From a plasmid, in the sequence record CP071152.1: a stretch of 64,000 nucleotides of DNA, one strand, 5' to 3'. Positions 4,191-26,447 of the stretch are shown one piece after another. Position 1 is the first letter of the stretch. Each line of letters opens with the position of its first letter. Position numbers and translations under genes: made by a program. The notes under the pieces are model-generated. The model was not told where the DNA came from and did no database searches. It saw only the letters and a program-made list of their open reading frames with translations.

Positions 4191-4200
4191 GAGGTGGCCC

Positions 4201-8676: not shown

Positions 8677-8726
8677 TATATTGCATTTATCAAATGACCG
8701 CACATGACCGCCACTTGGAGATAGCC

Positions 8727-9023: not shown

Positions 9024-9036
9024 GAGAGAGGTAGTC

Positions 9037-9306: not shown

Positions 9307-9482
9307 GTAGAACCCGCCCTCTCCCTCTCCCTCCCCTCACACTTATCCTGTGCTTGTCCCACCACCGGCGTGATCTCTTTGCTGGTGATGGGTTGAGCAC
9401 GCTCATGTGCCTGTTAGTGCCAGACCTTCTCATCCTGACCCGCCTCGTGCCACACTGAGTCCCCTCACACTGCTGGAGATGG

Positions 9483-9966
9483 CTATGAGTGCAAGGTTGG
9501 AGTTTGAGATTATCGAAAACGAAGGCAGGTTTGTGTTTCCTGCGGCAGCTGAGCAACCCTACCGATCGCTGCTCGATTCATTGGTGAGTGAGTCCACCAC
9601 GGACAACGAGTTCGTCTGGTCTCTCCAAGCACTGCACCGGGAAGAGCCGCAAAACCTTGGCGTGATCGCCTCTCTGGCCGCGCACTACGCTTCCGACGAG
9701 CCGGAGACTGCCCTGGAGTACGCCGAGAAGGGTCTGGCCCTCGCCGCTGCCCTCAACCCACCGACTTCACAGGCACCATGGACTGGAGGGAGGAATCCAA
9801 CCACACCTACTTCGCGCTGCTGCACAGCGCCATAGTGGCCAACATGTTCATGGGGGACAACGACGAGGCATGGCGGCTGATCAATCACTCGTTCACCCTC
9901 AACCCGCGCGATCACCTAAGCGTGCGCTTGTTTCGCGACCAGTTGCCCGCGTATGTCGCTCATTGA
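9483..9966 (+). pseudogene. hypothetical gene with apparent frameshift near 9775
   Basis: ORF 9407..9835 and ORF 9778..9966 are contiguous in different frames. Both have ordinary protein-like composition. Confidence 0.3.
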
Positions 9967-10110
9967 GCGAGCGAAGCCCTTGGACCGGCAGGCGGGTATT
10001 AGCGTCGTGCCAGTCTTTTCCCTTTCTCGGGTTGTTTAATGCCTGTCTTGCTCGCCGGAAGGGAATTGCGCTGCTCTGGGTAGCGAGGTGCAAGGTCTGG
10101 GGATCAGCTC

Positions 10111-11361: not shown

Positions 11362-11384
11362 CTAGTCCTCGAAGGAGATCCGCA

Positions 11385-11795
11385 CTACCAATCGGAGTCT
11401 AAACCGCCGCCAATACTCCCAGAACCCATGTCTAATGATCCGTCGAAGCTGTTGAAGCTGTCGAACGAACTGCCAGCAGATATATCCGCCCAATCGTCGT
11501 TGCAGTAACTCTGGATAGGTTCTTCGTGGTTGTCATACAACGGACTCATGGCGTTATCGAACATGTTGTCCCGGTGCATCATCGCGGCGTCAAAATCATC
11601 GTCCATCGAAGTGCGTTCATGCCGTACCTTCTCGTCGAAGAAGTTGGAGAAGTCGTCGTTATTGAGCCAGTCGTTGAGCCATTCTTCGTCAGTCATGCTG
11701 CTGCGCGACTTATTCTCAGCCCTTTGGGCAACCGCTGGTGGGTCGGTGAGCTGGCTGTCTACGAGGGTGTAGGCCTTTGTGAGCAACGAGAACAT
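11385..11795 (-). CDS. acidic D/S/F-rich hypothetical protein
   Basis: RBS ggag before ATG MFSLLTKAY. It lies 23 nt upstream of the CoiA-like gene on the same strand. Confidence 0.45.
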   Translation of the reverse strand: MFSLLTKAYTLVDSQLTDPPAVAQRAENKSRSSMTDEEWLNDWLNNDDFSNFFDEKVRHERTSMDDDFDAAMMHRDNMFDNAMSPLYDNHEEPIQSYCNDDWADISAGSSFDSFNSFDGSLDMGSGSIGGGLDSDW

Positions 11796-11817
11796 GGCTG
11801 ACTCCTTAACTGCTAGA

Positions 11818-12054
11818 TCACACTTCGGTGGAACCAATCCACTCCATACCAAGATAGGCGTCGGCGCAGGCCCGCTCGGGCAAGCCCAGATGCAGGTCGC
11901 AGAGCTGCTGGTGTGTCCAACCGCCTTCCGGTGCCGGGAACTCGATGGGCGGATAATCGGACACCGATTGCACGATGATGCGCAGGGTTTGGGTGGCCAA
12001 TGAAGGGGTCAGCAGCTCTGGCTCATTGCCTTGTACGTCGGTGATGAAGTGCAT
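11818..12054 (-). CDS. hypothetical small protein (first gene of the CoiA-like operon)
   Basis: 78-aa ORF. Its promoter region carries paired inverted repeats. Confidence 0.35.
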   Translation of the reverse strand: MHFITDVQGNEPELLTPSLATQTLRIIVQSVSDYPPIEFPAPEGGWTHQQLCDLHLGLPERACADAYLGMEWIGSTEV

Positions 12055-12107
12055 GTTGTACCTCGCGGTTCATGAGCGGGTGGCTCGCGGCGGAAAAAAC
12101 AACTTTG

Positions 12108-12171
12108 ATTTATTACACCTGTATTTATTATACTAAACCCTGATGCCGATGCAATTTTTACAGGTGTAATA
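12108..12171. promoter_or_regulatory. divergent promoter/operator: TTATTACACCTGTA ... TACAGGTGTAATAA inverted repeat pair
   Basis: The 14-bp arms are perfectly complementary and about 36 bp apart, between divergently oriented genes. Confidence 0.55.
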
Positions 12172-12172
12172 A

Positions 12173-12397
12173 ATGCAAGAATCTGACAGCAATCGGAGGC
12201 GTGGTGCCCCCCATAAACCCGATGAGATGAAGCGCACGGCCCGGTTGGGCGCGGTCCAGCTCACGGAAGAACAGCTGGCTACCTATGAGCTGGTGGCCAA
12301 GATGGAAGGCAAGAGTAAGTCGCAGTGGATAAGGGACACTCTGGATGCTCGGTGCGAGCTGGCACTGCTCTTTGCGAAACAGCCCAAGCCAGAGTGA
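12173..12397 (+). CDS. ribbon-helix-helix (CopG/ParD-like) DNA-binding protein
   Basis: 74 aa. ...GKSKSQWIRDTLDAR fits the RHH recognition-strand pattern. Confidence 0.5.
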   Translation: MQESDSNRRRGAPHKPDEMKRTARLGAVQLTEEQLATYELVAKMEGKSKSQWIRDTLDARCELALLFAKQPKPE

Positions 12398-12551
12398 ACC
12401 CCAGAGCCGTCGCTCCCACGGGCAGGCCACGGGTTCCTTCAAGGACTGGCAGATGAGTAGCCATGTTCGCAGTCTAGCGGCATGGTCTGACAGGTTGCGG
12501 TGTGGGCGAACGCCCTCTGTGCCGGTGAGCAAGATTTGGATTAGGTAACCG

Positions 12552-13367
12552 TCAAATAAGCGGTAGAGACACCTCACCTACCTCGACAAGCGATCCGTTC
12601 TCCCACGGTATGACGGCCACCTGCCGGTCTTTGACTATCTGGATGTAGCCGCCTTGAATTTTGTCGATGTCACGGGCTGAGAAACCGACCAGCGATATAT
12701 AGGGGGAGCCGCCTCTCAGGAACTTCTTTACCTTTGCATATTCGTCCTTTCCCGTGGCGATGAAATAGATGTGCTCGCCTTCGGTCACCATGTCAGGGGA
12801 GTCAGGGTTTTGCGTGTATTTGCACACGAGGTCGATGTCACCCACATCAGGAGCAGTGGTGATGAGGCTGCCGTAGAGCCACACATCCTGAACCCAGACG
12901 TATGGCTCGCAGGCATTCCACTCCTCCACCCGCTCAAGGAACTCTTCGAGCTTTTGCACTGCCTTGGCCCGAGGCAATCGCTTGATGAGCTTGTGGCGAC
13001 TCAGCTCAGCGCCTTTGGCTGTTACCTGATACCAAGCAAAGCCATTGTGATCGGTTATTCCCATCACTGTGAGATAACCCTCATCAAGCATTTTCTGGAT
13101 GAGGTCGGGCGCGAGGGCAACCGCATTGGGATTCAGTTCGGTCAGGGAATACCCCATACCGCATCGCTGCTTCTCCTTGGTCAACACTATCTCGCCAATG
13201 GAGCGAACCTCCGTGACATAGTTTATGTCGTCGGTAGGGTACATCTGAGCGTAGTGGCGCAACCGCTTCACCAGATCGCGACCTGTCTTGAGGTCGAGCC
13301 CGAAAATTTTGCTCTTGGGGTCAATCGTCAGTCCCATGATCTCACCTGCTGTGGGATGAAAAGTCAT
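12552..13367 (-). CDS. nucleotidyltransferase-fold (pol-beta superfamily) protein with N-terminal extension
   Basis: RBS gggggaa before ATG MTFHPTAGE. Minimal NTase motif LYGSLITTAPDVGDIDLV (GS...DxD) sits in the C-terminal half. Confidence 0.45.
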   Translation of the reverse strand: MTFHPTAGEIMGLTIDPKSKIFGLDLKTGRDLVKRLRHYAQMYPTDDINYVTEVRSIGEIVLTKEKQRCGMGYSLTELNPNAVALAPDLIQKMLDEGYLTVMGITDHNGFAWYQVTAKGAELSRHKLIKRLPRAKAVQKLEEFLERVEEWNACEPYVWVQDVWLYGSLITTAPDVGDIDLVCKYTQNPDSPDMVTEGEHIYFIATGKDEYAKVKKFLRGGSPYISLVGFSARDIDKIQGGYIQIVKDRQVAVIPWENGSLVEVGEVSLPLI

Positions 13368-13717
13368 AAAGTTATTCCCCCCAACTAGGGATACATCGTA
13401 GAGGCTTCCAAGTTGTAATTTCCATTGAATGCCCCTCTTTCCGGGGCTTTTCTTGACCTTAATCATCGAGAAGCTACTCCATAATTAAACATTTCATGTA
13501 GGGACAATGTGACGATAGATTGTAGTGTAAGCAGGGCAAGCAGCTGGCTTTCCATGAAAGCTGAGTAGCTTGAGCAGAGGGGGCAAAATGCTGATGTTCG
13601 AGGAAGCTGAACTACACCGACGGTGTGCATTCTCGTCCAATAGACTACTGATGTGGCTTGCCACCTTTTTAAAGTTGTGACCACTTGATTACGTTACTTG
13701 GGGAGATAGGTGATGGA

Positions 13718-15118
13718 ATGTTCGTAACTGTCAAAGCCCGTGTTTATACCGATGTCACGGGTGCCTACACTGAGCTCCCCGCCTTGCTGACGCCGGCGGG
13801 AGTGCTGGAGTCGTTGCTTGACTACTGCCTCTATCGCAGCCACGACCGCAGTCTCACCTGGATGTCGAAGGTGAGCCGCTCTGTGCGGATGTTTCTTGAA
13901 TATCTCCAGACCAACCCTGCCGAGCGTGATACCTACCACCTGTTCCAGAATTTCGCTCAGCGGCTCTACTCCGGCACCTTCGACCGTGAGATAGGGCTCG
14001 ACCCCAGCGGGCTCTGCTGGGCGCCGCGGTCGCCGCAGGACGCCTCACACATCATCACCCACCTATCCGACTTCTTCGACTGGTTGGGCGAAATGCGTCC
14101 CGCATCGGCACAGGTCAATCCGCGCTACGCCGGTGGAGCTTTCGACCGGCAAACCGATGAAGCTGCCTACCAGTATCGGCGCAGCAAAGCGTTCTTAGGA
14201 CATACCTGGGCGGCCAATGCGTCACCGAGCCAGACCAGGCATCGAATTAGAGGGCGGCGTCTGCCTAAGGTTGAACGCGGCGAGCCGCCAGCCTTTCCGG
14301 AGGCGCGTTTCGAGGAGCTCCTGGTTAAGGGATTCTGTGCTGCCGGACGCCAGGATTATCGGGGCATGCTTATCACCTTGTTATTGCACGGAGCTGGCTT
14401 CCGAGAGTCGGAGCCTTTCCACCTGTACATTCAGGATGTGTTGCCTGACCCTGCCAACCCAAATCAGGCCCTGGTTCGCATCCACCATCCAAGTCATGGT
14501 GCTGCGCCAGCTGATTGGCGTGACGCGCAAGGACGCCCCCGCAAGGGCAATCGGGCGGAGTACCTCTCCCAGCAGTTTGGTCTGGCCCCTCGCACAGATC
14601 TTCTAGACCGTCGTCATGCTGGCTGGAAAGGCGGCATGCATGATGGGGCCTATTACAAGCAGGCGTACTGGCTCCTGCCGGAGTATGGCGAGTGGTTTCT
14701 ACAGCTGTGGCACCGCTATCTGGAGCAGGTGGCTCGCAGTGAACGCGGCCATCCCTTTGCTTTCATCAATCTCGTCCGCGAGCCTGTCGGTGCCATGTGC
14801 ACACTCAACCAGTACAACAAGGCCCATGCAGCTGCCTGCGAACGTATCGGCCTCACGGTGAGCAAAGCTCTGGGTACAACGCCGCATGGCCACCGCCACG
14901 CCTACGGTCGCCGACTCATGAACGCCGGTATCGACAAGGCTCTTATCCGTCGCTTTATGCATCACGCCTCCCTGGATAGTCAGGAGGTCTACACGCAAGC
15001 GAATAGCCGCGAGGCCTTGGCTGCATTGGATGTGGCTGCGCAGCGGCTACGAGGCGCGAAGGTGGGAGCTGCCGCTACGCCGAGCCTGTTGCCCGCGGAC
15101 ATCTTATTGAATGACTGA
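13718..15118 (+). CDS. tyrosine recombinase, GmtY-like (first of a recombinase trio)
   Basis: C-terminal HGHRHAYGRRL...IRRFMHHASLDSQEVYTQ gives the H-x-x-R...H...Y catalytic pattern of tyrosine recombinases. Confidence 0.65.
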   Translation: MFVTVKARVYTDVTGAYTELPALLTPAGVLESLLDYCLYRSHDRSLTWMSKVSRSVRMFLEYLQTNPAERDTYHLFQNFAQRLYSGTFDREIGLDPSGLCWAPRSPQDASHIITHLSDFFDWLGEMRPASAQVNPRYAGGAFDRQTDEAAYQYRRSKAFLGHTWAANASPSQTRHRIRGRRLPKVERGEPPAFPEARFEELLVKGFCAAGRQDYRGMLITLLLHGAGFRESEPFHLYIQDVLPDPANPNQALVRIHHPSHGAAPADWRDAQGRPRKGNRAEYLSQQFGLAPRTDLLDRRHAGWKGGMHDGAYYKQAYWLLPEYGEWFLQLWHRYLEQVARSERGHPFAFINLVREPVGAMCTLNQYNKAHAAACERIGLTVSKALGTTPHGHRHAYGRRLMNAGIDKALIRRFMHHASLDSQEVYTQANSREALAALDVAAQRLRGAKVGAAATPSLLPADILLND

Positions 15119-15127
15119 GGATTTGCC

Positions 15128-17725
15128 ATGCCCAATAAGAAGAAAACAACTGCGGCCAGTGTATCTACGCGCCCTGTAACAAGGAAACCAGGGGTAAAGC
15201 GCGTCACGGACACATCCCTCGGCTGGGTTTCACGGGAATATCCGCAGCTCGAACCCTGGCGCATCCTTGCGATGGAGTGGCTAAAAGGGGAAACTCGCGG
15301 GGTCAGTTCGAGACTGCAAGCTCTATCGTCCTTTTTCGAGCGCTACCTTATCCAGCAGAGCCTACCGCTTGACCCGGCAGTGCTGCTGACGCGCGGCACG
15401 GTTCTGCCGGACTATTACCAGACCGCCTGCCCAGATTCGAGGGCTGGCATCACGTACAACAACTGCATCAACTCCTTCCTGCACTTTGTGCTGCTACGTG
15501 AGTTCAGTGTGCCCGGTGATGACGGTCAGCCGGTCATTTCGCAGGCCTTCCGGAACCCAGTGCTCTGGATGTCTAAGGGCGGCTTGCCTTGGCGCGACGA
15601 GAGCGTGCATTCGCCACTACCCTACGGCTACATTGATGAACTGCGCCAGATGTTGGCGGCGGGACCACACTTCCGGGACTGGTTGTGGGCACAAAACGCA
15701 TTGGGTGCAGAAATTGGTCAGCGGGGACCCGGCGCTCCTGACTGGTTCGAGGTAACCGAAGCGCAGATTGACCGGAACGACCCGGATTGCGTCTGGCGTG
15801 AACGCCCAATGCGGAACGGGGCGCGCCTGGAAATGTGGAGCCCGGTGCGCTGGGTCGCACTACTGGTGAAGCTCATACTGCCACTGCGTACTTCTCAGGT
15901 CCGCATGCTCGACTCAGGCGAGGCGGATACCTGGCGCTACGCAGACGGCGTGTGGGCATTGAACCCAAGCCGAATCGCACACGGTAGTGAGCGGCGCCCA
16001 CTACACCAGGGGGTGTTTCGCCGTAGCGCCGCTCTGGCTGATGGCGAGGCGGTTTCGACTGTGCTCTACATCAACACTAACAAGACCGCCGATATCACCA
16101 AGTCAGGCCCCGAGAAAGGCTATGTCCTACCTTGGTCCTCCGGCGGCCCGGCGCATCAGGATGTGTTCTACTGGCTGGAAAAACAGCGTAACTGGCAGGA
16201 AAAATACAATCCGGTATCGCGGCGTACATCTTGGTCTTCACTGGATGGACGCCACATCCAGGCGAAGAGCGAGGTGCAACTCGCAAGCTATCCGGATACT
16301 TGCTTCCTGTTCCGATCGCCGGAAGCCCGTGAGGGTGAACGTTATTTCCCACTTTCGGATAAAGTAATGTTCTCCAGTTGGTTTGCCCTGCTGGAAGCAC
16401 TGGAATGGCGGCTAGCTGACCGAGGTGAGACTCATCGCAATGGCACGAAAATCCGCTTCCTTCCACCGCAAGAAGAGCGGCTCAGCTATCAAAGAACTCT
16501 CTTCCCCTTACACAGTCTGCGCGTCTCCCTCGTCACCGCGCTGGCCCTAGAAGGCCAAGTGCCGTTCCCTATCCTACAAAAGCTCGTCGGACACAGCCGC
16601 CTATTGATGACGCTGTACTACACCAAGCCCGGTGCAACACACATCCGCGACGTATTGCTCGGCGCTGCGGAACGGTTGGAGGCGGCCAAGGAAGAGGGCA
16701 TTCAGACCTTCCTGCTAGACACCGAGTATGGGGTGCTCCTCGAACAGGCTATTTGTAACAGTGTGCCATCTCTGGCTGCCGCTATTCCGCAACATCCCGC
16801 TGCACGTAACCCCGTGGGCTGGATGCCGATGCACCACGGTCTGTGCCTGGTCGGTGGCAACACCAGCGAAGGGGGAGACAATGGAGCTGTGGGCGGCTGC
16901 TACAACGGGGGCGCAATTATTATCAAGAGCACGACAAATGTTAACGCCAAATACGGGCCTGTCCCTGGCGGCAGTCGCAACTGTGTACGCTGTCGTTGGT
17001 TCGTAACTGCTCCGCAGCACCTACCAGCCTTGGCGGCCCACTTCAACACGCTGGCCTACCACTTCGACGAGACGCGCAACGCCTGCCTTGCCCGAGAAAA
17101 CGACCTCCAGGCCCTGAAAAAGGACAGGGCTGAAGCAGAAGCGGCTGGCCAGTCATTCACCCGGCTAGATGCTGTCAGGCAAGCAGAGCGGCTTTGGGAG
17201 AGCACCATGAGGCGCTTTAGTGATTCGGCGGAAGACCTGGTTGCCTGCTGGCGGCTCATCGAGCGCTGCAAGGCTCTACTCGAATCGCGCACTGGCGACA
17301 GCACGCAATTGGTGGCGGCTGGCACGTTATGCGATGTGCAGGCCGTCTTCGAGGAAACCGAGTCGGAGCTTCTGCAACTGGCTGGTGTCTGTGAGAGCGT
17401 CGAACTCTATCCAGACCTAGAGCCAGGCAAGGCGGTGTTTCGACGCAGCCAGTTGCTGGATACCGTCCTCTACCGCGACAAGTTGCCTCCTGTGTTCATG
17501 CTGCTGAGCGAACAGGAACAACTCCTCGCTGGTAACGCCTTTATGCGCCACCTAGCGCAGCAGATGAACCCGTCGAATCCGGCGATCGGCCAACGTGAAG
17601 TTATTCGTCTGATGGATGCCGGTGAGCGTCTCAGTGCATACCTAGATCTCAACCTTGCAGCGCAGTTGCCTACATCCCGTCACACCGCCGCGTTCCGGTC
17701 CGGGCCGACCCTGAAATGGAATTAA
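15128..17725 (+). CDS. large tyrosine-recombinase-domain protein, GmtZ-like
   Basis: 865 aa. ...LHSLRVSLVTALALEG...LVGHSRLLMTLYYTK (HxLR...GH...Y). RBS tgagga. It sits 9 nt after the first recombinase. Confidence 0.6.
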   Translation: MPNKKKTTAASVSTRPVTRKPGVKRVTDTSLGWVSREYPQLEPWRILAMEWLKGETRGVSSRLQALSSFFERYLIQQSLPLDPAVLLTRGTVLPDYYQTACPDSRAGITYNNCINSFLHFVLLREFSVPGDDGQPVISQAFRNPVLWMSKGGLPWRDESVHSPLPYGYIDELRQMLAAGPHFRDWLWAQNALGAEIGQRGPGAPDWFEVTEAQIDRNDPDCVWRERPMRNGARLEMWSPVRWVALLVKLILPLRTSQVRMLDSGEADTWRYADGVWALNPSRIAHGSERRPLHQGVFRRSAALADGEAVSTVLYINTNKTADITKSGPEKGYVLPWSSGGPAHQDVFYWLEKQRNWQEKYNPVSRRTSWSSLDGRHIQAKSEVQLASYPDTCFLFRSPEAREGERYFPLSDKVMFSSWFALLEALEWRLADRGETHRNGTKIRFLPPQEERLSYQRTLFPLHSLRVSLVTALALEGQVPFPILQKLVGHSRLLMTLYYTKPGATHIRDVLLGAAERLEAAKEEGIQTFLLDTEYGVLLEQAICNSVPSLAAAIPQHPAARNPVGWMPMHHGLCLVGGNTSEGGDNGAVGGCYNGGAIIIKSTTNVNAKYGPVPGGSRNCVRCRWFVTAPQHLPALAAHFNTLAYHFDETRNACLARENDLQALKKDRAEAEAAGQSFTRLDAVRQAERLWESTMRRFSDSAEDLVACWRLIERCKALLESRTGDSTQLVAAGTLCDVQAVFEETESELLQLAGVCESVELYPDLEPGKAVFRRSQLLDTVLYRDKLPPVFMLLSEQEQLLAGNAFMRHLAQQMNPSNPAIGQREVIRLMDAGERLSAYLDLNLAAQLPTSRHTAAFRSGPTLKWN

Positions 17726-17727
17726 TC

Positions 17728-18387
17728 ATGAGTAAAACAACAGATATTCACCCTGACGTCGTGTTGGAGTCGCTGCTTGCCAAGGCTGAGCGCTCGAACC
17801 GTCGAAACAACCTCATCAAGATGCATGAACTGTGTCGCAAGCAGCACGAGGTTGGGTCGCGTGACTTCTCCGTGTCAACCATCGGCCGTCTGGCTGAGGC
17901 CGATGGCATCATGAAAGGCCGTGCGCTCTACAACACCCAATCCGCCGACTACAAGGCTCTCATAGAGGTCTGGGCTGCTTACGCAGGTCCACCTGCCCCC
18001 AAGCCCACCAAGACGCTGGCCAGCCACGACTACCTGATGCGCATCGATGATCCGGCCATTCGTTCTATCATGCAGGCCATCGTCACAGAGCGTGACAAAC
18101 TCAAGGCGCAGCTCAACACCCTCAAGGCACACACACTGGTGAACGTGGACCGGCGGCCGTTAGGGGCAACTGTCACGTCCGCGACTGGCACGCCGGTGGT
18201 TGTGCTTAAATTGTCCGCACAACTGACTCCATCTGAACGCGAGGCACTACAGAAAGCGGTGTCAGCAGACTACCTCGAAGATCGGGGTTTGAAGGAAGGC
18301 AGCCACGGTGAAATCGTTAACGAGCGCGGTCGCACAATATTCGAGGTTGGCTTTGCTTGGGCAATTCGCAAGGTGTTGGGTGACTGA
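17728..18387 (+). CDS. small third protein of the recombinase trio (GmtX-like)
   Basis: ATG overlaps the upstream stop (TAATCATG). About 220 aa with no recognisable catalytic motif. Its size and position fit GMT or Tn554 TnpC-like accessory proteins. Confidence 0.45.
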   Translation: MSKTTDIHPDVVLESLLAKAERSNRRNNLIKMHELCRKQHEVGSRDFSVSTIGRLAEADGIMKGRALYNTQSADYKALIEVWAAYAGPPAPKPTKTLASHDYLMRIDDPAIRSIMQAIVTERDKLKAQLNTLKAHTLVNVDRRPLGATVTSATGTPVVVLKLSAQLTPSEREALQKAVSADYLEDRGLKEGSHGEIVNERGRTIFEVGFAWAIRKVLGD

Positions 18388-18735
18388 CCCTTTGTGGGAG
18401 AGCAATAGATAATCATATTGAGAATTAAAGTACCATACTAAAATGGCAGTGCTCTCATCGGTACGCTGCCTTTTCTAAAACGTTCATACCCCAAAACCAT
18501 TCAGAGAAAATACTCATTCATTACCTGTTAGTGTGACTTTACCTTATAAAAGGTGATCTGAAAGTGTGTAGTGGGTTTCTGTCGTATTAGATGGTTTGAC
18601 TGCATTCTAATTCATGGGCTTTTGATTCAAGTGATGGAATAATTGTAAATTGCAAGCATATGAAATATGGCGCATCATGTGTGTGGAAGGTTACTCTGCG
18701 CCGTATAGGTAGGCATACAAAACTGGAGAGTGCTA

Positions 18736-19785
18736 ATGCTTGTAAAGTATTATGGTTTGGTTTTCGTTCATAGAACCAATCGTTGGTCACCAAGAGTAGA
18801 ATTTATATCAAACGGTTTATTTCGCATGACTCAGCCTAAATACCTTAATGATAAAGGGAGCGAGGCGAGACTATGGCCATATTTTAATGAGTTTTCACCT
18901 GCAGATTATGCATGGGCCAAAAAAGAACATGATAAAATGCAAACCGATCCTTCCTATGTCCCATCAAATGAAGAATTAGAAAACTTCTTTCTAAAACCGT
19001 GTGGCTCGCGCTATGGAGACCATTTCCCGCATATGCTAGATCAAGAAGGCTTCAACTCAATGGAAGATTATGATCGGGAGCAATTGACTCAAGCGGCTGA
19101 AAGAGTCAACTCATTTTTAGTGGAGGCATTAAGCTGCCAGTTAGGCATTTTATCTCTTTCAAAGTCTGACACAAATGAACTTATGTGGACATATTATGCT
19201 AGCGAAGGTAAGGGACTAGCTGTTACTTTCAATGAGAATCATGCATTTTTCAACCAGCTTCCCCCGAAAGATGTTAGTTATACTCCAGATAAAAGAGCTT
19301 CTCTTACATATTATAAAGGTATGATACGAATAAATGGTGCTCCGATAAAAAGCTTCCATGCTGCAGATTTAGGTAATCCATTAGGAGTTATGCGCTCTCT
19401 TAGTAGCAATGGTATTGATATAGTTGATTTTTCGGATCGACTGCTATATTCGAAAGCCAAACAATGGTCTTTTGAAGATGAGACTAGAATTGTATGCCCC
19501 CTTATGTTATGTGAAGAGAAAGTAGGGCCACTAGTACAACCAGACTTTGGAGTTGAATTACCTAATGAACTCTCCCCAATGTTCAAGAGCTACTCTGAGG
19601 TCAATCTAAAACGAATACCATTCGAGGCATTTGAGTCTATCATTTTTGGTTACAGTATGAGTGAATTAGACAAGTCTACTATCACTGAACTGGTAAGGAA
19701 AAATGAAAACTTGTCCCATATAAAGTTACGCATAGCCAAACACAATATTTATGGCAACATTGAGATCAATGATCTCGTTGTGTAA
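18736..19785 (+). CDS. DUF2971-like protein (defence-island associated family)
   Basis: RBS ggagag before the ATG. LVKYYGL...ISNGLFRMTQPKYLNDKGSE and ILSLSKSDTNELMWTYYASEGKGLAVTF match my recollection of DUF2971 conserved blocks. The region is strongly AT-rich. Confidence 0.5.
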   Translation: MLVKYYGLVFVHRTNRWSPRVEFISNGLFRMTQPKYLNDKGSEARLWPYFNEFSPADYAWAKKEHDKMQTDPSYVPSNEELENFFLKPCGSRYGDHFPHMLDQEGFNSMEDYDREQLTQAAERVNSFLVEALSCQLGILSLSKSDTNELMWTYYASEGKGLAVTFNENHAFFNQLPPKDVSYTPDKRASLTYYKGMIRINGAPIKSFHAADLGNPLGVMRSLSSNGIDIVDFSDRLLYSKAKQWSFEDETRIVCPLMLCEEKVGPLVQPDFGVELPNELSPMFKSYSEVNLKRIPFEAFESIIFGYSMSELDKSTITELVRKNENLSHIKLRIAKHNIYGNIEINDLVV

Positions 19786-19827
19786 GATGCTACTTTATTA
19801 GCAGAAATTTATCATATTTGAGGTGCT

Positions 19828-20835
19828 ATGTTTTATATTTTCCTTGATACCTGTGTTCTTTTAGATATTTCAACAAAAAAATATGACCTTCCTTTGGTTT
19901 CTGCACTGGAAGAGTTGGTTGCATCGGGTGTGATTACACTTATACTTACCGACCTAGTTGTGGAAGAGTACGAGAGGAATAAGGAAGACGTAGCAAACAA
20001 GACTGCCAAAAGGTTGTCTCAAGAATTTAAACAAGTAAAAGTAATAGTAAGTGAATTTGCAGGCGATAAAAAAGCGGACACAATAGACGTATTAAATGAC
20101 ATCAATGCGCGTTTACCCCTGCTAACTGATGCCAACTATGCGACCATTCACAGAGTTGAAAGGCTTATCGAATCAGCAAAAAAAATCAGTATTAGTGAAC
20201 GTTCTAAAATAGCCGCAGTTCAGCGGGGCCTAGATAAAAGAGCGCCATTTCACATTAGTAAAAACTCTGTAGCTGATGCGGTCATCATCGAACAATTTTA
20301 TGAGTTCTCGCAGGGTGTCGATAGTGAGTCTGGTTGTTGTTTTTTCATAACCCACAATCACAATGACTTTTCTGCAAAGGATCACCGTCAACCACATTCT
20401 GATTTTGGTAATATTTTTAACGACACGAGTGTTCTTTATTTCAATAATCTAGCATCAGCAATTAATGAAATTGACGAGAATTTTTTAGATGGTATTGAAT
20501 TTGAGTATGACCACACAGAGGAAACCAGAGGCCTAAGAGAAATCCTAGATGCGATGGACGAACTAGTTGACAAAGTTTGGTATAACAGGCACCAGAATCG
20601 CATGTGGGCTATTGAAAATGGCGAGATCGAAATTGTTCCTGAGGGTACTGAACGTTATGGTAATAATGTCATTCACGAGAATATCCTTAAAGGTGCTATG
20701 AAGTCTGCAAAACGTGTTGAAGACACCTATGACAACGTAGGGCCTTGGAGCGACTTTGAGTGGGGTATGATTAATGGAAAATTGTCTGCATTACGTTGGG
20801 TGCTAGGTGATGAATGGGATATGTTAGACACCTAA
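19828..20835 (+). CDS. PIN-like nuclease-domain protein with long C-terminal extension
   Basis: RBS gaggtg before the ATG. N-terminus MFYIFLDTCVLLDI is a PIN-type start (vlDTnvli). The ORF is 42 nt downstream of the DUF2971-like gene on the same strand. Confidence 0.5.
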   Translation: MFYIFLDTCVLLDISTKKYDLPLVSALEELVASGVITLILTDLVVEEYERNKEDVANKTAKRLSQEFKQVKVIVSEFAGDKKADTIDVLNDINARLPLLTDANYATIHRVERLIESAKKISISERSKIAAVQRGLDKRAPFHISKNSVADAVIIEQFYEFSQGVDSESGCCFFITHNHNDFSAKDHRQPHSDFGNIFNDTSVLYFNNLASAINEIDENFLDGIEFEYDHTEETRGLREILDAMDELVDKVWYNRHQNRMWAIENGEIEIVPEGTERYGNNVIHENILKGAMKSAKRVEDTYDNVGPWSDFEWGMINGKLSALRWVLGDEWDMLDT

Positions 20836-21464
20836 GATATACTGGATCAATAACTAACTAAGGCTTCAATATACATTTTCTCATCTGAGGGTAGCGCGCT
20901 AGATCTTTAGATCTAACGCATTTCTATCCAAAATCGAGTTATGCTGAGTATGATAATTTATTCCTCTCCCCCCACTCTGTGGAGCTTACGAAGATCAGAC
21001 TGTAATGCAATTGCTGGATTAGAAGCTGATCACTCCCAGATTGGCAACACCACCCTACAGGCCTATCAGAAAAATTTCGCGTTCCTAGAAGGTCTTCCTC
21101 TGACCGACCCGCAACGAGTGTGTTTATTGGGCGTGCGGGCCGACACACGCCAAAAGTTCAGGGATAATCGGTAACGCAGCGCCAGAACCACTCATCTGTC
21201 AGCCAATTAAACCTTAATAGAGCGCAGGTCAAGTATCGGAGAGCTTATCTTGGAAGACCTGCTGCAGGTTATCCGCGAAGAGGCAGGCTTTTACTCGTTT
21301 GGTCAGTAGCTAAAAACCGGGCTTGGCTTTGTAAGGTGACAGAATAACCATCGCTGCGATCACATTCGTAGCAAACACCAAACGGTAAGCTCATCTGATC
21401 GTGACGAAGAACCATTGCATAATTATTTTTTCGAGTTGGACCTTGACAAGGAAAGTAGAAAAAG

Positions 21465-24062
21465 ATGTCTGAACCAGCGAATGAAACAGCCGGAATGAAT
21501 GATTTTGAAATGTGGTTGAACGACCGTAATGGTTGGCTTCAGACCGCAGCCAGACAACTCATCGACAACAAGAGGTTACCGAATGGGGGCGAGCTTGCAG
21601 AGCTGGTTCGACTTTGCAAACTGGAGGCCATCAAGCAGAGTGACCCTGGATTTCTGAAGGTGGCCCCAGGAGCATTATCTGCTGGCGCGGTACGACGGGT
21701 TGTGCGGGTCGAAGAAGTAACCCAAGTCTTCGGGGTTAACGCGATTAAGCATGGAGCATCTCTACCATTCGGAACGGGCAGTCTGACGGTCATCTACGGG
21801 CAAAATGGTTCGGGGAAAAGTGGTTTTGCTCGTCTGCTCAAACAGCTGTGTGGATCTCGTTCACGGGACGAAATCCACCCCAACGTATTCAACGATAAAG
21901 AGCATGCTTGCAGTGCTCAATGCCGAATCACTATTGATGGCAATTCCCGAGATATCAATTGGCATCCTGGTGCAGAGCCCCATGCGATGCTCAAGTACGC
22001 CCAAGTATTTGATTCGAAGGCAGCAACTCAGTACATGGGGCGCACTGAGTCAAGCTATGAGCCGAGCAGCATGCGGTTCATCTCCATGCTCATTCAAATT
22101 TCGGGCATGGTTTCTGATGAGCTGGGGCGGGAGAAGGGAAAGCTCGTTAGGGCACTTCCACAGTTCCCGGGTGATCTCTCAGAAACCGCTGAGAAAGCCT
22201 GGTTCTCCTCTCTCAAAGCCTCCGTTTCTGCTGAGCAGGTCGAGGCGTATTGCCGGTATGGGAAAGATTTGGACGACGAGCGGGTCAAGGCTGAGGCTCT
22301 GCTTGCGGAAAAAGACATCGCGGGTCGCTTGGTTACCATTGGCAAGGAAAATGTTGCCACTGAAAGCATCAAGCAGGCAATGAAACTGTTGAAAGAAGGT
22401 CTAACCGACGAGAAGGCTGATGAGTTGTCGAAGGCGAGAGTGTCGGCGGTTGCAGCGAGAAAGGCGGCCAACGAAGTTGCACAGCAGGCATTCGCGAATG
22501 TTCCTCTCCAAGGCGTGGGTGATACGGCCTGGAAACTTATGTGGGAGCAGGCGCGCGCCTATTCCGTTGCTCATGCATACCATGGTCACGAATTTCCCGT
22601 TACTTCAGACGGTGCGCACTGCGTGCTCTGTCAGCAAGAACTTACGGCTGAGGGCGCCACTCGGCTCAAAAGCTTCGAGGCTTTCGTCACCGCAGGTCTC
22701 GAGACTGCGGCGAAAACTGCGGAGGCCATCAGTTCGGCACTGATCGCGAAGGTAATTCAGGTGCCTTCGATTGAAGACTGGATTGCGCGCCTGGCTCAGT
22801 TGCAGTTCGACGAAGCCACGGCCCGTGCTTGGTATGAGTCGTTGAAGTCTAGGCGAGCACAGTTTGTGGCGTGCGCTGCCGTGGGAGATATCTCTGCGTT
22901 CGATTGGGTTCCTATCGATCAGGCACTGGAAAAACGAGCTGCCGACTTGCTTGCTGAGAAGACCAGCCTCGCCCAGCTGCAGCAAGATGGGCAGCGGCTG
23001 CAGGTCGAGAAGCGAGTGAAGCAACTCAAAGCACTTCAGTGGCTGTCCCAGAACAAACCTGCGATTCTCGCAGAGCGTGAGCGGCTAGTAGCTGTCGATC
23101 TTCTGGATAAAGCTACTAAGTTAACGGCCACCAATTCGTTGACAACCAAGCGCAACGAGCTTGGACGTACCGAGCTTGATGCTGGATATCAGGCCCGCTT
23201 TGATGCGGAGTTGAAGTCCCTTGGTGGACGGCGGTTGCCAGTTGTGCCGCAGAGCAGGGCTCAAGGAAAGGGAGTTATCACATTTGGGCTCGCCCTTGTC
23301 GGTGCTCGGGCTGGCTTCACTCCTGATGTCGTACTCAGTGAAGGCGAAACCCGCATTGTTGCACTGGCGGCATTCCTGGCCGACACAACTGGTTCGAACC
23401 AGCTTGCCCCCTTCATCTTTGACGACCCGATTTCGTCTTTAGATCAGGATTTCGAGGAGAGGGTTGTTACCCGGCTTGTCGAGTTGGCGAAGACCCGGCA
23501 GGTCATCATCTTCACTCACCGCCTCTCGTTGATTGCACTCGTTGAGGCTGTAATCAAAAAACACGGTGAGAATCCGGCTAACGAGAAAATTACCTACACC
23601 GTGCAGTCGCTTCGACGGCTGGATAAGGTTTCGGGAATTCTGGCGCAACACAGTCTGCGGGATGCCAAGCCCGATAAGGCACTTAATGCGGTTAGAGATC
23701 ACGTCATCCCGAGGCTCAAAAAACATCAGGCCGATGCCGACGCCGACGGTTATGACCTCACCGTGAAGAGCGCCTGCAGTGATTTCCGGATCATCTTGGA
23801 ACGAACAGTGGAGCTCATCCTCTTGAATGACGTAGTTATTCGTTTCAGACGGGACGTCATGACTAAAGGAAAGCTGAGAGGTGTTGCCAAGGTGATGGCA
23901 GAGGACTGCGATTTTATCGACCGGTTAATGACCAAGTATTCAGTCTATGAGCACTCGCAGGCAGATGAGCTACCTCAGGTTCCGGTCGAACTCGATGAGT
24001 TCGAGCGAGATGTATTGGAACTCATTGCATGGATGGCTCAATTCAAGGAGCGATCAAGCTAG
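21465..24062 (+). CDS. RloC/PrrC-like ABC ATPase with CxxC zinc hook and C-terminal nuclease-like domain
   Basis: Walker A GQNGSGKSG, then a long coiled coil containing HCVLCQQE (CxxC). ABC signature-like LSEGETRIVALAAFLAD, Walker B FIFDDPISSLD, H-loop IIFTHR, then about 170 aa more. Confidence 0.5.
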   Translation: MSEPANETAGMNDFEMWLNDRNGWLQTAARQLIDNKRLPNGGELAELVRLCKLEAIKQSDPGFLKVAPGALSAGAVRRVVRVEEVTQVFGVNAIKHGASLPFGTGSLTVIYGQNGSGKSGFARLLKQLCGSRSRDEIHPNVFNDKEHACSAQCRITIDGNSRDINWHPGAEPHAMLKYAQVFDSKAATQYMGRTESSYEPSSMRFISMLIQISGMVSDELGREKGKLVRALPQFPGDLSETAEKAWFSSLKASVSAEQVEAYCRYGKDLDDERVKAEALLAEKDIAGRLVTIGKENVATESIKQAMKLLKEGLTDEKADELSKARVSAVAARKAANEVAQQAFANVPLQGVGDTAWKLMWEQARAYSVAHAYHGHEFPVTSDGAHCVLCQQELTAEGATRLKSFEAFVTAGLETAAKTAEAISSALIAKVIQVPSIEDWIARLAQLQFDEATARAWYESLKSRRAQFVACAAVGDISAFDWVPIDQALEKRAADLLAEKTSLAQLQQDGQRLQVEKRVKQLKALQWLSQNKPAILAERERLVAVDLLDKATKLTATNSLTTKRNELGRTELDAGYQARFDAELKSLGGRRLPVVPQSRAQGKGVITFGLALVGARAGFTPDVVLSEGETRIVALAAFLADTTGSNQLAPFIFDDPISSLDQDFEERVVTRLVELAKTRQVIIFTHRLSLIALVEAVIKKHGENPANEKITYTVQSLRRLDKVSGILAQHSLRDAKPDKALNAVRDHVIPRLKKHQADADADGYDLTVKSACSDFRIILERTVELILLNDVVIRFRRDVMTKGKLRGVAKVMAEDCDFIDRLMTKYSVYEHSQADELPQVPVELDEFERDVLELIAWMAQFKERSS

Positions 24063-24186
24063 ACGGAGTGATTTTGCTCAAGCAAAGGGGCCAGCGGCGT
24101 TTTTCAAGATAGTTGTCGCGCAAAGCTGTTTTAAGCAGCCTCTTTTTGCTCCGGCTCGGGTTTCTCGGGCCGCTCCGGATTTAGCA

Positions 24187-25399
24187 TCACGGCACCGATA
24201 GGTGTCCAGTCTCGCGTCTTGCCACTCCACCTCGCTGGGTGTTGTGCTCGGGCGGCCTGGTACACAGCATCCCGTTTCGCCAGCAGGGCTTTATCGTCAC
24301 CCGATGCCGCTCGTTGGGTGTGACGAAGCGGATACGGCTATGCCGGTGCTCTTCGTTATACCAGGCCATAAAGTCGCGCACCCACTCCCTGGCCGCTTCC
24401 AGACTGGCAAAGCCGTCTGATGGCCACTGCGGACAGTACTTCAGCGTCCTGAACAATGACTCCGAGTACGGATTATCGTTGCTGACCCGAGGCCGTCCCC
24501 CGCGAGGGCGTGACACCCAGGTCATGCATCTTGGTCAGCAGCGTGACTGACTTCATTGGCGCGCCGTTGTCCGAGTGCAAGACCAGCGGCTGCTTCCAGC
24601 ACTGCTCGCGGATGATGCTCCGTTGCAGCAACGCCGCCGCCCGTTCACCGCACTCTTGCTCATGCACTTCCCAGCCCACCCCTTTGCGGCTGTAGATGTC
24701 CTCTATCAGATAGAGGTAGTAATACTGGCCGCGCACGAGTGACGGCAAGTAGGTGATATCCCAGGACCACACTTGATTGGGCCCAGTCGCGGTATGGCTG
24801 GTTGGTACCGGCACATGACGCGGTGGCTGGCTCCGGCCACGCCTGTGCTGCTGGTCAGCCGCCCGCAAGATGCGATAGAAGCTCGACTCACTGGCCAAGT
24901 AGCGCCCCTGGTCGGCCAGCCGTGGCACAATTTGACTCGGCGGCAACGAGGCGAACTCCTGGCTATTGCAGACGTCCAGCACGGCCTGCCGCTCCTCTGG
25001 GCTCAATGCATGAGCAGGTATGGAACGAACCGCATCCGGTCGCCTATCGGCACTCAGCTCAGGGCCGGCCAACCAGCGCTGGAGCGTGCGCAGACTCAGC
25101 CCCAACACCTCGGCCGCAGGATGCTTGCGGGCGCCAGCTTCAAGCGCTTCGCGCCACCATGCAACGTATTGCTGCCGCTCTGGCAACGAGGTCAGTTGTC
25201 CTCGTCGACGTTGCTCCAGTAGGCATCGAGCTTTTTTTGCAATATCAGCAGAGCTGCCGCCTCGGCCAGGGCCTTGTCTTTGCGCCGCAGCTCTTGCTCC
25301 AGTTGCCGGATACGCTTCTTGTCCGCTTTGGCCTGTGCCTTCTCCGCCTGTTGTAAGGTACGAGCGGATTGCTGGCCCAGAATACAGGCTTGGCGCCAT
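24187..25399 (-). pseudogene. IS3-family transposase OrfB, DDE domain split by a frameshift
   Basis: WSWDITYL and HSDNG lie in ORF 24473..25399. NDNPYSESLFRTLK lies in ORF 24187..24525, in another frame. Confidence 0.6.
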
Positions 25400-25692
25400 T
25401 GCTGGACTTGCTCGGGATAGAGACCCTTACGGCGGCAGTACTCACTGAGTTCAATCTCGGAAAGCGCAGCGGTTTCCAGCACGACGGCGAACTTGGCCTC
25501 GGCGGGCCATTCATCGGTCAGTTTGTTGTCCCCGGGCACAGGAGACCCTCCGTCTTTGGCGTGTTTGCGCCAATTATACAGAGTGACCTCGCTGATGTTT
25601 TCCTGCCGAGCCAACTCGGCCACCGACATATTGATGGGCGGCAGCAGCTTCTTGAGCAAAGCAGCCTTGCGCTCACTTGAATAACGAGCCAT
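25192..25692 (-). CDS. IS3-family transposase OrfA (HTH/leucine zipper)
   Basis: MARYSSERKAALLKKLL...ELARQENISEVTLYNWRKH is typical IS3 OrfA. Confidence 0.7.
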   Translation of the reverse strand: MARYSSERKAALLKKLLPPINMSVAELARQENISEVTLYNWRKHAKDGGSPVPGDNKLTDEWPAEAKFAVVLETAALSEIELSEYCRRKGLYPEQVQQWRQACILGQQSARTLQQAEKAQAKADKKRIRQLEQELRRKDKALAEAAALLILQKKLDAYWSNVDEDN

Positions 25693-26447
25693 TCGACACT
25701 CTTTATCCGCCCCCGGTCTTCACATTTAGATTATTCAGATTAGGCGACAACTATTCTGACACCGGGGGCCAGTGATAACTAGATCTATATATGCGATACG
25801 GGCCGAGAAAAGCGCCGACAATGCCGTCGGCGCCTGAAAGTTATGATGTATTAAAATGCATTTTTACATATACAGATAAAGCGTAGGAAACTCTTTGGTA
25901 GCAAGTCTTCTGGCTGACATATCTCCTAACTATGCTCAATTAGGGTATAAGTTTCATCCTTGCAAATAAAGTGTCATCCCAACGGGATGAAAGCATTGAA
26001 TTTGCTGGGCTGTAGCCGTTCTTACTGCTCAAATCACTACCCAGCTCAGGGTTCCACTGGCCAGTTCGAGCCACCCCGGTGTACTTGGCGCTTGGCCACC
26101 CCGGTTTACCTGTTGAGAGACATCTCAAATGCCGCGGTCAAAGTCCCCGAGGGAGATCCAGACGCCATGCCGGGAGTTTCAGCACCGTCGGTTGACCTGG
26201 CCAGCACCGGTTTTGGGGATGAGTTCCGGGGTTGAGCAGCTGGTTGATTTCCACCAAGGACATCGGTGCTCGAGAGCGGACATAAGTACCCAGGTCAGCC
26301 TGCTGGCCACATCCCGGTACCAACCTACTCACGGAATTTGGCCTCTGTCGCAAATTCATCAAGAGGGCCCCTCTACTCATTGCGTGGCAGTGGGCAACGC
26401 GGGTACACATGAGTCGCCCACCACTGCGACCTACCAAGGACTGCGCT

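What the first reader, a model, noticed from the sequence alone, without database searches (positions are those of the whole stretch)
13718..18387. Nested three-gene tyrosine-recombinase module (GMT-like) inside a larger mobile element
Three adjacent, coupled genes: a 467-aa tyrosine recombinase (HxxR...H...Y), an 865-aa second tyrosine-recombinase-domain protein, and a 220-aa accessory protein with a 4-nt overlap. The sizes (467/865/220 aa) and order match what I recall of gamma-mobile-trio (GmtY/GmtZ/GmtX) islands better than Tn554 (TnpA/TnpB/TnpC: 361/630/125 aa). GMT islands are reported to carry defence and antibacterial cargo 3' of the trio. Here an AT-rich block with candidate defence genes follows immediately at 18.4-24 kb.
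Basis: partly seen in the sequence, partly recalled or inferred. Interest (0 to 1): 0.7.

Follow-up and report, generated by a model that had tools for sequence, protein, structure and literature searches.

The report
Known GMT defence island on plasmid
The three genes are a genuine Gamma-Mobile-Trio (GmtY/GmtZ/GmtX) module driving a 12.6-kb mobile island with candidate anti-phage genes on an Aeromonas plasmid. This island is already annotated in RefSeq and listed in the paper that defined the family; what is added here is its exact ends and target site.

Summary
The observation and the GMT interpretation are both correct. ORFs 13718-15118, 15128-17725 and 17728-18387 score far above the curated NCBIfam equivalog cut-offs for GmtY (525/340 bits), GmtZ (981/600) and GmtX (235/40). 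The window is a MobH/RepB Aeromonas plasmid, 99.9-100% identical to pK520-KPC and pMCR5_045096, where RefSeq already names gmtY and gmtX. Both plasmids appear in the border table of Mahata et al.

The same island occurs in at least six unrelated flanks, which fixes its ends at 13372 and 25952. That is 12,581 bp, or 10,903 bp without a secondary ISAs20 insertion. Sister plasmids carry the empty site GGGATGAAA-ATAAAG-TTTCATCC, an inverted repeat split by the island as the family model predicts. These borders are tighter than the published ones, which map to about 12418-26305 with no inverted repeat recorded.

The cargo is three single-gene defence candidates: DUF2971 (PDC-S31-like), PIN_12 and a PDC-S06 ATPase. 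None has been validated experimentally.

Two points stay unexplained. The 6-nt junction spacers differ between the two ends of one insertion. The window's own junctions are shifted relative to all other copies.

Novelty: already known. Interest: low.

The parts
13353..13361 (.). Left arm of the target inverted repeat (GGGATGAAA), plasmid backbone
   Evidence: The empty site on sister plasmids L026/L028/L031 reads GGGATGAAA-ATAAAG-TTTCATCC. Arm-like motifs sit at the same offset in 5 other left flanks. Coordinates were checked.
13362..13371 (.). attL junction spacer AGTC+ATAAAG. This is atypical: 10 nt instead of 6, and AGTC repeats the island's last four bases as seen in other copies.
   Evidence: Other contexts have exactly 6 variable nt here.
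13372..13717 (+). Island left end (TTATTCCCCCCAACTAGGG...) and the 346-nt non-coding leader of gmtY
   Evidence: Homology to five foreign contexts (L005, L007, L009, L014, L048) starts at 13371/13372. The leader has GC 0.45.
13718..15118 (+). gmtY, tyrosine recombinase (466 aa)
   Evidence: NF040693 scores 525.2 bits against a cut-off of 340. Pfam Phage_integrase matches. The R-H-R-H-Y residues are present. The identical protein is found in 78 blocks of the public collection.
15128..17725 (+). gmtZ, large integrase (865 aa)
   Evidence: NF047926 scores 981.5 bits against a cut-off of 600. PF13009 Integrase_2 matches at 1.7e-119. An HxxR...H...Y motif aligns to XerA.
17728..18387 (+). gmtX, accessory protein (219 aa)
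   Evidence: NF040692 scores 234.6 bits against a cut-off of 40. Homologues at 78-91% identity are named GmtX in Aeromonas, Aromatoleum, Chromobacterium, Comamonas, Burkholderia and Pseudomonas.
18730..19785 (+). Cargo 1: DUF2971 protein (351 aa), PDC-S31-like defence candidate
   Evidence: Pfam DUF2971 matches. PADLOC PDC-S31 scores 62.9 bits over part of the protein. phrog_1762 matches. GC is 0.38.
19828..20835 (+). Cargo 2: PIN_12 (DUF4935) nuclease-like protein (335 aa)
   Evidence: PF16289 matches at 1.3e-28. There is no PADLOC hit. Homologues occur alone in variable neighbourhoods and are not paired with DUF2971.
21465..24062 (+). Cargo 3: 865-aa AAA_13/SMC_N ATPase, PADLOC candidate PDC-S06
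   Evidence: PDLC04893 scores 1117.7 bits over its full length. Pfam AAA_13 and SMC_N match. The same gene, at 94.7% nucleotide identity, follows a different multi-integrase module on P. aeruginosa pPAD8.
24095..25768 (-). ISAs20 (IS3 family), a secondary insertion inside the island's 3' non-coding end. It is absent from pK520-KPC and pMCR5_045096.
   Evidence: The transposase ORF 24473-25399(-) hits rve and IS3 models. The flanking repeat is CCAG or GGGGCCAG.
25769..25952 (+). Island right end (...CTCAATTAGGGTATAAGT)
   Evidence: Homology to five foreign contexts (L015/L017, L018/L022, L019, L023, L003) stops at 25952.
25953..25959 (.). Right arm of the target inverted repeat (TTCATCC; TTTCATCC if the island's last T is counted), plasmid backbone
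   Evidence: Empty site, junction table, coordinates.
12552..13337 (-). Backbone gene next to the insertion (native 261 aa). The 304-aa ORF 12552-13466 is a false 5' extension into the island.
   Evidence: On the empty-site plasmids the gene is 261 aa. Its ATG corresponds to window 13337.

Best explanation
Window 13372-25952 is one Gamma-Mobile-Trio (GMT) genomic island. It is inserted, trio first, into an intergenic inverted-repeat site of a mobilizable MobH/RepB Aeromonas plasmid. GmtY and GmtZ are tyrosine-recombinase-type proteins and GmtX is an accessory protein. Published experiments on VPaI-6 show that the three together are required for a circular form of the island and for its insertion into the spacer of a specific inverted-repeat site, by a copy-and-paste route (taken from the literature, not tested here). 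The target here is GGGATGAAA-ATAAAG-TTTCATCC, and the island separates the two arms. The island carries three single-gene anti-phage defence candidates of different GC content: DUF2971/PDC-S31-like, PIN_12 and a PDC-S06 ATPase. It has since been hit by ISAs20. Shown here: family membership, the ends, the empty site, and recurrence of the whole unit in unrelated contexts. Inferred: activity of this particular copy, the recombination chemistry, and a defence function for the cargo.
For: The equivalog HMMs for all three proteins score well above their curated cut-offs. Pfam finds Phage_integrase and Integrase_2, and the catalytic motifs are present. RefSeq annotates gmtY, 'VPA1269 family protein' and gmtX on plasmids 99.9-100% identical to the window. 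Mahata et al. list both plasmids in their table of bordered GMT islands. Identical GmtY, GmtX and ATPase proteins lie on contigs with unrelated flanks, and homology always starts at 13371/13372 and ends at 25952. Sister plasmids with the same backbone lack the island and carry the intact inverted repeat. Across independent flanks, 5-8 of 8 bases match GGATGAAA or TTTCATCC at a fixed offset. One chromosomal site is empty in L014 and occupied in L023. The cargo hits PADLOC candidates. The family's mechanism, cargo pattern and inverted-repeat target sites are described in bioRxiv 10.1101/2023.03.28.534373.
Against: No experiment or read-level evidence for a circular form of this copy was available. 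The window's own junctions are atypical. attL carries 10 nt instead of 6, and attR has no spacer and lacks the terminal C seen in all other copies. This copy may therefore be impaired for excision. The paper's StbA-like assignment for GmtX could not be reproduced: there were no significant PDB matches by sequence or by fold. The cargo genes are only 'candidates' in PADLOC; none has been validated.
Confidence: 0.93

Rival explanations
1. It is a GMT island, but this copy is frozen. An aberrant or later-mutated junction (attR without a spacer, attL with 4 extra bases) prevents excision or copying from this plasmid site, so the plasmid merely carries it.
For: The window's attL and attR differ from the arm+6 nt / 6 nt+arm pattern of all other contexts. 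No conservative reciprocal exchange between the naive site and a TATAAGTC-N6-TTATTCC joint reproduces them (reasoning). The sister plasmid pMCR5_045096 additionally has ISAs27 inside gmtY.
Against: The three genes are intact and identical to copies found in other contexts. A metagenomic copy at the same site has a different attR (CATAT present), which could reflect ongoing activity. Both island ends themselves are complete.
Confidence: 0.25
2. It is a Tn554-type (TnpA/TnpB/TnpC) transposon rather than a GMT element.
For: The general plan is the same: two tyrosine-recombinase-like proteins plus a small third protein, no target duplication, and variable short junction sequences (the Tn554 properties are from general knowledge).
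Against: The significant full-length hits are to the GmtY, GmtZ and GmtX equivalogs. No Tn554 transposase family appears among the NCBIfam hits at E<=0.01. The sizes are 466/865/219 aa against 361/630/125 aa. The target is an inverted repeat rather than att554.
Confidence: 0.02
3. The trio is a minimal element, and the AT-rich cargo block (18.4-24 kb) is a separate, unrelated insertion next to it.
For: GC content is mosaic: 0.59 for the trio, 0.38-0.39 for DUF2971 and PIN_12, and 0.54 for the ATPase. In L005 and L014 homology stops at 18575. The ATPase gene alone is shared with a different element on pPAD8.
Against: The stop at 18575 in L005/L014 is the inverted repeat of a Tn1721-type tet(A) transposon inserted into the island. 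In L039 and L042 the trio and all cargo lie between the same two ends, next to target arms. The empty site shows the whole 13372-25952 stretch is missing at once.
Confidence: 0.04
4. The genes are ordinary phage or ICE integrases of a prophage remnant.
For: Pfam Phage_integrase matches both large proteins.
Against: There are no phage structural or replication genes between the ends. PHROG hits are only to families of unknown function or to generic ATPase families. The Gmt equivalogs are met. The island is 10.9 kb with defined ends.
Confidence: 0.01

Closest known systems
GMT islands (Gamma-Mobile-Trio; prototype VPaI-6 of Vibrio parahaemolyticus RIMD 2210633; Mahata et al., bioRxiv 10.1101/2023.03.28.534373)
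   Same: The gmtY-gmtZ-gmtX order sits at the 5' border and the cargo lies 3' of it. Insertion is between the arms of a short inverted repeat. The island is located on a plasmid, the cargo is defence-type, and the length (10.9 kb without the IS) is close to the reported median of about 13.6 kb. This very island, on pK520-KPC and pMCR5_045096, is in the paper's border table.
   Different: The published borders for this island were set by comparison with a more distant A. caviae contig. They are coarser: they map to about window 12418-26305, give 1289 nt from the border to gmtY, and record no inverted repeat. Here the ends are 13372 and 25952, the distance to gmtY is 346 nt, and a perfect 8-9-nt inverted repeat with a 6-nt spacer is found. 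The window copy also carries ISAs20 and atypical junction spacers.
Tn554 / Tn916-type tyrosine-recombinase transposons (general knowledge)
   Same: There is no target-site duplication. The short sequences next to the two ends are not identical to each other and vary between insertions, which resembles carried 'coupling' sequences.
   Different: The protein families, sizes and target differ. Carry-over of junction sequences is only suggested here, not demonstrated.
Four-gene multi-integrase module of P. aeruginosa plasmid pPAD8 (NZ_CP061074.2)
   Same: It carries the same PDC-S06 ATPase gene (94.7% nucleotide identity) immediately 3' of its recombinase genes.
   Different: Its proteins are a 405-aa tyrosine recombinase, a 504-aa NF041502 integrase, a 663-aa 'integrase' and a 145-aa ORF. 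The GmtY model scores only 30.6 bits on them, so it is not a GMT system.

Membership tests
GMT (Gamma-Mobile-Trio) island | GmtY: matches the NCBIfam equivalog NF040693 above its cut-off | tested here: met
   525.2 bits against a cut-off of 340, covering profile positions 1-439 of 441.
GMT (Gamma-Mobile-Trio) island | GmtZ: matches the NCBIfam equivalog NF047926 above its cut-off (Integrase_2 / Phage_Integr_2 domain) | tested here: met
   981.5 bits against a cut-off of 600, full profile. PF13009 matches at 1.7e-119.
GMT (Gamma-Mobile-Trio) island | GmtX: matches the NCBIfam equivalog NF040692 above its cut-off | tested here: met
   234.6 bits against a cut-off of 40. Close homologues are named GmtX by NCBI.
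GMT (Gamma-Mobile-Trio) island | The three genes are contiguous, co-directional, in the order Y-Z-X, and lie at the 5' border of the island with cargo 3' of them | tested here: met
   ORF layout. The left end is 346 nt upstream of gmtY and the right end is 7.6 kb downstream of gmtX.
GMT (Gamma-Mobile-Trio) island | The naive insertion site contains an inverted repeat; the island sits between the arms and the flanks are adjacent in related replicons | tested here: met
   The empty site GGGATGAAA-ATAAAG-TTTCATCC is present on L026, L028 and L031. Arms are seen at a fixed offset in other contexts.
GMT (Gamma-Mobile-Trio) island | Mobility: the same island is found at different loci and replicons | tested here: met
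   There are at least six different left flanks and five different right flanks, both chromosomal and plasmid, including one site that is empty in L014 and occupied in L023.
GMT (Gamma-Mobile-Trio) island | A circular intermediate lacking the flanking repeats, dependence on all three genes, and replicative transfer | not testable with these tools
   Known only from the experiments on VPaI-6 and strain 04.2548 in the paper.
GMT (Gamma-Mobile-Trio) island | The N-terminus of GmtX resembles the DNA-binding domain of StbA (an HHpred claim in the paper) | tested here: inconclusive
Tn554 family | TnpA/TnpB/TnpC homology and sizes (361/630/125 aa) | tested here: not met
   No Tn554 family appears among the NCBIfam or Pfam hits. 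The full-length hits are all Gmt equivalogs. Sizes are 466/865/219 aa.
PADLOC candidate defence genes (PDC-S06, PDC-S31) | Full-length match to the candidate model | tested here: met
   PDC-S06 scores 1117.7 bits over its full length. The PDC-S31 match is only partial, at 62.9 bits. Anti-phage activity was not tested anywhere that I could find.

The most novel reading that the evidence does not exclude
The junction data may show that this GMT lineage recombines without identical overlap sequences and carries 6-nt 'coupling' sequences from site to site, in the manner of Tn916 or Tn554. Under this reading, target choice depends on the GGATGAAA arms plus an AT-rich spacer. The observations behind it are as follows. 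The two spacers of one insertion differ (CTATAT/ATAAAG and ACTCGG/CCAAAG). A spacer at an occupied site differs from the naive spacer (CTCAGG against ATAAAG). Some spacers are reverse complements of others between copies. The window's plasmid junctions are shifted, and a sister copy at the same site has a different attR. If correct, this would add a mechanistic detail that is not in the published description.
Probability: 0.3. Interest if true: 0.4.

Novelty: already known. Interest (0 to 1): 0.2.

Why it matters
The element is a textbook example of a recently defined class of mobile 'armoury' islands. Here it rides on large Aeromonas plasmids, sister copies of which carry mcr-5 or KPC according to their record names. 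That shows how defence candidates such as PDC-S06, DUF2971 and PIN_12 travel together with clinically relevant plasmids and move between plasmids and chromosomes.

The practical gains are modest. First, the report gives base-exact ends and the true target site for an island whose published borders were about 1.3 kb too wide. Second, it gives a small set of matched occupied and empty junctions that could be used to work out the crossover rules of GMT recombinases. Third, it identifies three compact cargo genes that are ready for phage-challenge tests.

Tried and rejected
- Internal repeat search. Searching 13300-29500 for terminal inverted or direct repeats gave only chance-level pairs. No 9-mer is shared between the two island ends apart from one chance hit. 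The ends had to be found by comparison with other copies.
- PLSDB searches with the flanks. These found only the two occupied sister plasmids and no empty site. The empty site came from an exact-protein look-up of the downstream backbone gene.
- Exact-pattern scans. The left end against genome contigs and the right end against metagenome contigs returned nothing.
- E. coli genomes. No match.
- DUF2971 and PIN_12 as a conserved two-gene system. Rejected: three PIN_12 homologues at 62-73% identity have no adjacent DUF2971 gene.
- GmtX structure. The model had moderate confidence and gave no significant PDB neighbour.
- Trio-only version in L005/L014. Rejected: the break at 18575 is a Tn1721-type transposon end.
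- Deriving the window's junctions from a simple reciprocal exchange. I could not do this. It is left unexplained.
Full report
**What is there**

Between 13.7 and 18.4 kb the plus strand carries three adjacent ORFs:
- 13718-15118, 466 aa
- 15128-17725, 865 aa
- 17728-18387, 219 aa (an in-frame ATG at 17716 would give 223 aa)

A 9-nt gap separates the first two ORFs. Otherwise the description holds.

**Family assignment**

Against NCBIfam, the three proteins hit the curated equivalog models of the Gamma-Mobile-Trio over nearly the full profile length:

| Protein | Model | Score (bits) | Cut-off (bits) |
|---|---|---|---|
| GmtY | NF040693 | 525.2 | 340 |
| GmtZ | NF047926 | 981.5 | 600 |
| GmtX | NF040692 | 234.6 | 40 |

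All other hits are weak partial matches to Xer-type recombinases. Nothing Tn554-like appears.

Pfam gives Phage_integrase for GmtY. For GmtZ it gives Integrase_2 (PF13009, 1.7e-119) plus a weak Phage_integrase C-terminal match.

Alignment to the XerA structure 4a8e places the recombinase signature residues as follows:
- GmtY: R229, H390-x-x-R393, H416, Y425
- GmtZ: H462-x-x-R465, H489, Y498

**Context**

The window is a large Aeromonas plasmid. Stretch 11000-28000 is 100% identical to A. hydrophila pMCR5_045096 (NZ_CP028567.2) and 99.9% identical to A. allosaccharophila pK520-KPC (NZ_CP118989.1). Both are typed MOBH and mobilizable.

The window holds the MobH/TraI_2 relaxase at 4189-7101 and a Rep3-type RepB at 32015-32884.

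RefSeq already names the genes on those plasmids gmtY, 'VPA1269 family protein' and gmtX.

**Ends of the island**

Exact-sequence look-ups of GmtY, GmtX and the downstream ATPase returned contigs where identical proteins sit in unrelated surroundings:
- next to tyrA (L005/L046)
- between a LuxCE-type acyl cluster and NeuA/NeuB genes (L009/L019/L042)
- next to a trypsin-PDZ protease gene (L014, L023)
- on another plasmid-like contig with HU, SNase and DsbA genes (L007/L015/L039)
- on A. salmonicida plasmids (L003/L018/L022)
- on one further contig (L048)

In every case similarity to the window begins at 13371/13372 and ends at 25952. The constant ends read TTATTCCCCCCAACTAGGG... on the left and ...CTCAATTAGGGTATAAGT on the right.

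The island is therefore 13372-25952, or 12,581 bp. Of this, 24095-25768 is an ISAs20 (IS3-family) copy that the two sister plasmids lack. Without the IS and its target duplication the island is 10,903 bp.

**Empty site**

Looking up the backbone gene 26448-27206 found sister plasmids with the same MobH...RepB backbone and no island. In L026, L028 and L031, window position 13362 is joined almost directly to 25949. The sequence there reads ...CTGT GGGATGAAA ATAAAG TTTCATCC TTGC.... This is an 8-9-nt perfect inverted repeat around a 6-nt spacer.

This is the architecture Mahata et al. describe for GMT naive insertion sites: an inverted repeat of at least 5 nt, with the island flanked by the arms.

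The site lies about 25 nt upstream of the true start of a 261-aa backbone gene (ATG at 13337, minus strand). The 304-aa ORF 12552-13466 called on occupied plasmids is a false extension into the island.

Two other relatives, L027 and L033, lack both the island and the site. They have about 200 bp of unrelated sequence in its place.

**Target motif in other contexts**

Left flanks carry an arm, then 6 variable nt, then TTATTCC. The arms are GGGATGACA, AAGATGAAA, AGGATGAAA and GGGATGAAA, with a weaker GGGAAGATG.

Right flanks carry ...TATAAGTC, then 6 variable nt, then an arm. The arms are TTTCATCCC, TTTCATCCT and ATTCATCCT, with a weaker TATAATCTC.

One chromosomal site is empty in L014 (GGATGAAT-CTTTAT-TTTCACC) and occupied in L023. 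Read in the island's orientation, that site has the same ATAAAG spacer as the plasmid site.

**How it most likely works**

Published experiments on VPaI-6 and on a second V. parahaemolyticus island showed the following:
- All three gmt genes are needed.
- A circular form lacking the flanking repeats exists.
- Insertion is specific for the cognate repeat-containing site and is sensitive to the spacer sequence.
- Transfer is replicative.

By membership, the same mechanism is inferred here. The sequence evidence that this lineage is or recently was active is that a 99.9-100% identical island occupies many sites on both plasmids and chromosomes.

**Cargo**

- 18730-19785 encodes a DUF2971 protein with a partial match to PADLOC candidate PDC-S31.
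- 19828-20835 encodes a PIN_12 (DUF4935) protein with no PADLOC model.
- 21465-24062 encodes an AAA_13/SMC_N ATPase that matches PADLOC candidate PDC-S06 over its full length at 1117.7 bits.

GC content is 0.38, 0.39 and 0.54 for these genes, against 0.57-0.60 for the trio. The cargo is therefore mosaic.

PIN_12 homologues at 62-73% identity in Leptolyngbya, Methylophaga and Cobetia have no DUF2971 neighbour. They sit in variable neighbourhoods, two of which look like defence islands. The two AT-rich genes are thus best read as independent single-gene modules.

I found no paper that tests any of the three genes. 'Defence' remains a prediction.

**Relation to what is published**

The supplementary border table of Mahata et al. 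lists this island on both NZ_CP118989.1 (GmtY WP_264098272.1) and NZ_CP028567.2 (WP_101617249.1). Its borders there were set by comparison with an A. caviae contig. For NZ_CP118989.1 the table gives a distance of 12,196 bp between the flanking alignments, 1,289 bp from the border to gmtY, an entry sequence CCGTGAGTAGGTTGGTACC..., and no inverted repeat.

Mapped to the window, those borders are about 12418 and 26305. They include the 261-aa backbone gene and about 350 bp on the right.

The multi-context comparison and the true empty site given here tighten the borders and reveal the inverted repeat. This is a refinement, not a discovery.

**Unexplained**

- Within one insertion the two 6-nt junction sequences differ: CTATAT/ATAAAG in L039 and ACTCGG/CCAAAG in L042.
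- The occupied site in L023 has CTCAGG where the naive spacer is ATAAAG. Some 6-mers are reverse complements of others between copies.
- In the window's plasmid lineage, attL has 10 nt (AGTC+ATAAAG), and attR has no spacer and lacks the terminal C.
- A metagenomic copy at the same site (L047) keeps this attL but has five more bases (CATAT) at attR.
- I could not derive these junctions from a simple reciprocal exchange. Carried coupling sequences with heteroduplex resolution, as in Tn916 or Tn554 (general knowledge), or later micro-indels, are both possible. This copy might be impaired for excision.

**Verdict**

The finding is real and correctly interpreted, but it is an already catalogued member of a described family. 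Interest is low.

Noticed in passing
window 21464-24036; L004 (NZ_CP061074.2, P. aeruginosa pPAD8) 2684-10599: The PDC-S06 ATPase gene alone (94.7% nucleotide identity, with homology confined to the ORF) lies directly 3' of a different four-gene module on pPAD8: a 405-aa tyrosine recombinase, a 504-aa NF041502 integrase, a 663-aa 'integrase' and a 145-aa ORF. That module is not a GMT system, since the GmtY model scores only 30.6 bits. The same defence candidate is therefore cargo of two unrelated multi-recombinase elements.
   Followed up: partly
L026 7390-9591, L028, L031 (sister plasmids; corresponds to window 25949-26038): On the empty-site plasmids, a 2.1-kb segment encoding a 499-506-aa protein (only a weak TPR hit) sits between two direct copies of the 90-bp stretch that contains the GMT target site. 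This is another insertion or duplication at the same hotspot.
   Followed up: partly
L047/L024 (ENA ERZ926033 k127_29003), right junction: This contig has the same plasmid site and the same unusual attL as the window, but attR reads GGGTATAAGT-CATAT-TTCATCC, five bases more than the window.
   Followed up: no
L014 5430-5655 and L023 9811-9990: The chromosome region next to a trypsin-PDZ gene holds several GGATGA(A/T)A-CTTTA(T/G) motifs within 205 bp. One is empty in L014 and occupied in L023, in the opposite orientation relative to the chromosome. The L014 island sits at a second such motif.
   Followed up: partly
L005/L046 10858 onward, L014 (equivalent to window 18575): In two genomes, a Tn1721-type transposon end (GGGGGAGCCCGCAGAATTCGGAAAAAATCGTACGCTAAG) with tetR/tet(A), EamA and isochorismatase genes interrupts the island just after gmtX. 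The island has thus picked up antibiotic resistance there.
   Followed up: partly
L002 (pMCR5_045096), equivalent to window 13775-13779; L007/L015/L039, equivalent to window 18436-18443; L003/L018/L022 (A. salmonicida plasmids): Other copies of the island are hit by different IS elements. ISAs27 (IS21 family) lies inside gmtY. An IS1595-family element lies between gmtX and DUF2971. Two IS110 copies break gmtZ, and the left part of the island is lost.
   Followed up: partly
window 25952-25992: The target region holds four GGATGA motifs in alternating orientation, and the direct repeat AAATAAAGT(T/G)TCATCC occurs twice. The second palindrome, TCATCCCAACGGGATGA (25974-25990), is called as a terminator-like hairpin on the minus strand.
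   Followed up: no
window 37309-39094, 46705-48506, 53180-54589: There are two copies of ISAs26 (IS200/IS605 with a TnpB-family gene) and a further 469-aa TnpB/Cas12f-like ORF elsewhere on the plasmid.
   Followed up: no
window 28036-28604: A CopG/RelE-ParE toxin-antitoxin pair lies just downstream of the island on the backbone. It is shared at 93-99.7% identity with many small Aeromonas plasmids.
   Followed up: no
window 13431-13447: A terminator-like hairpin, GCCCCTCTTTCCGGGGC followed by a T-run, lies on the plus strand inside the island's left leader, upstream of gmtY. It may insulate the trio from read-through from the flank.
   Followed up: no
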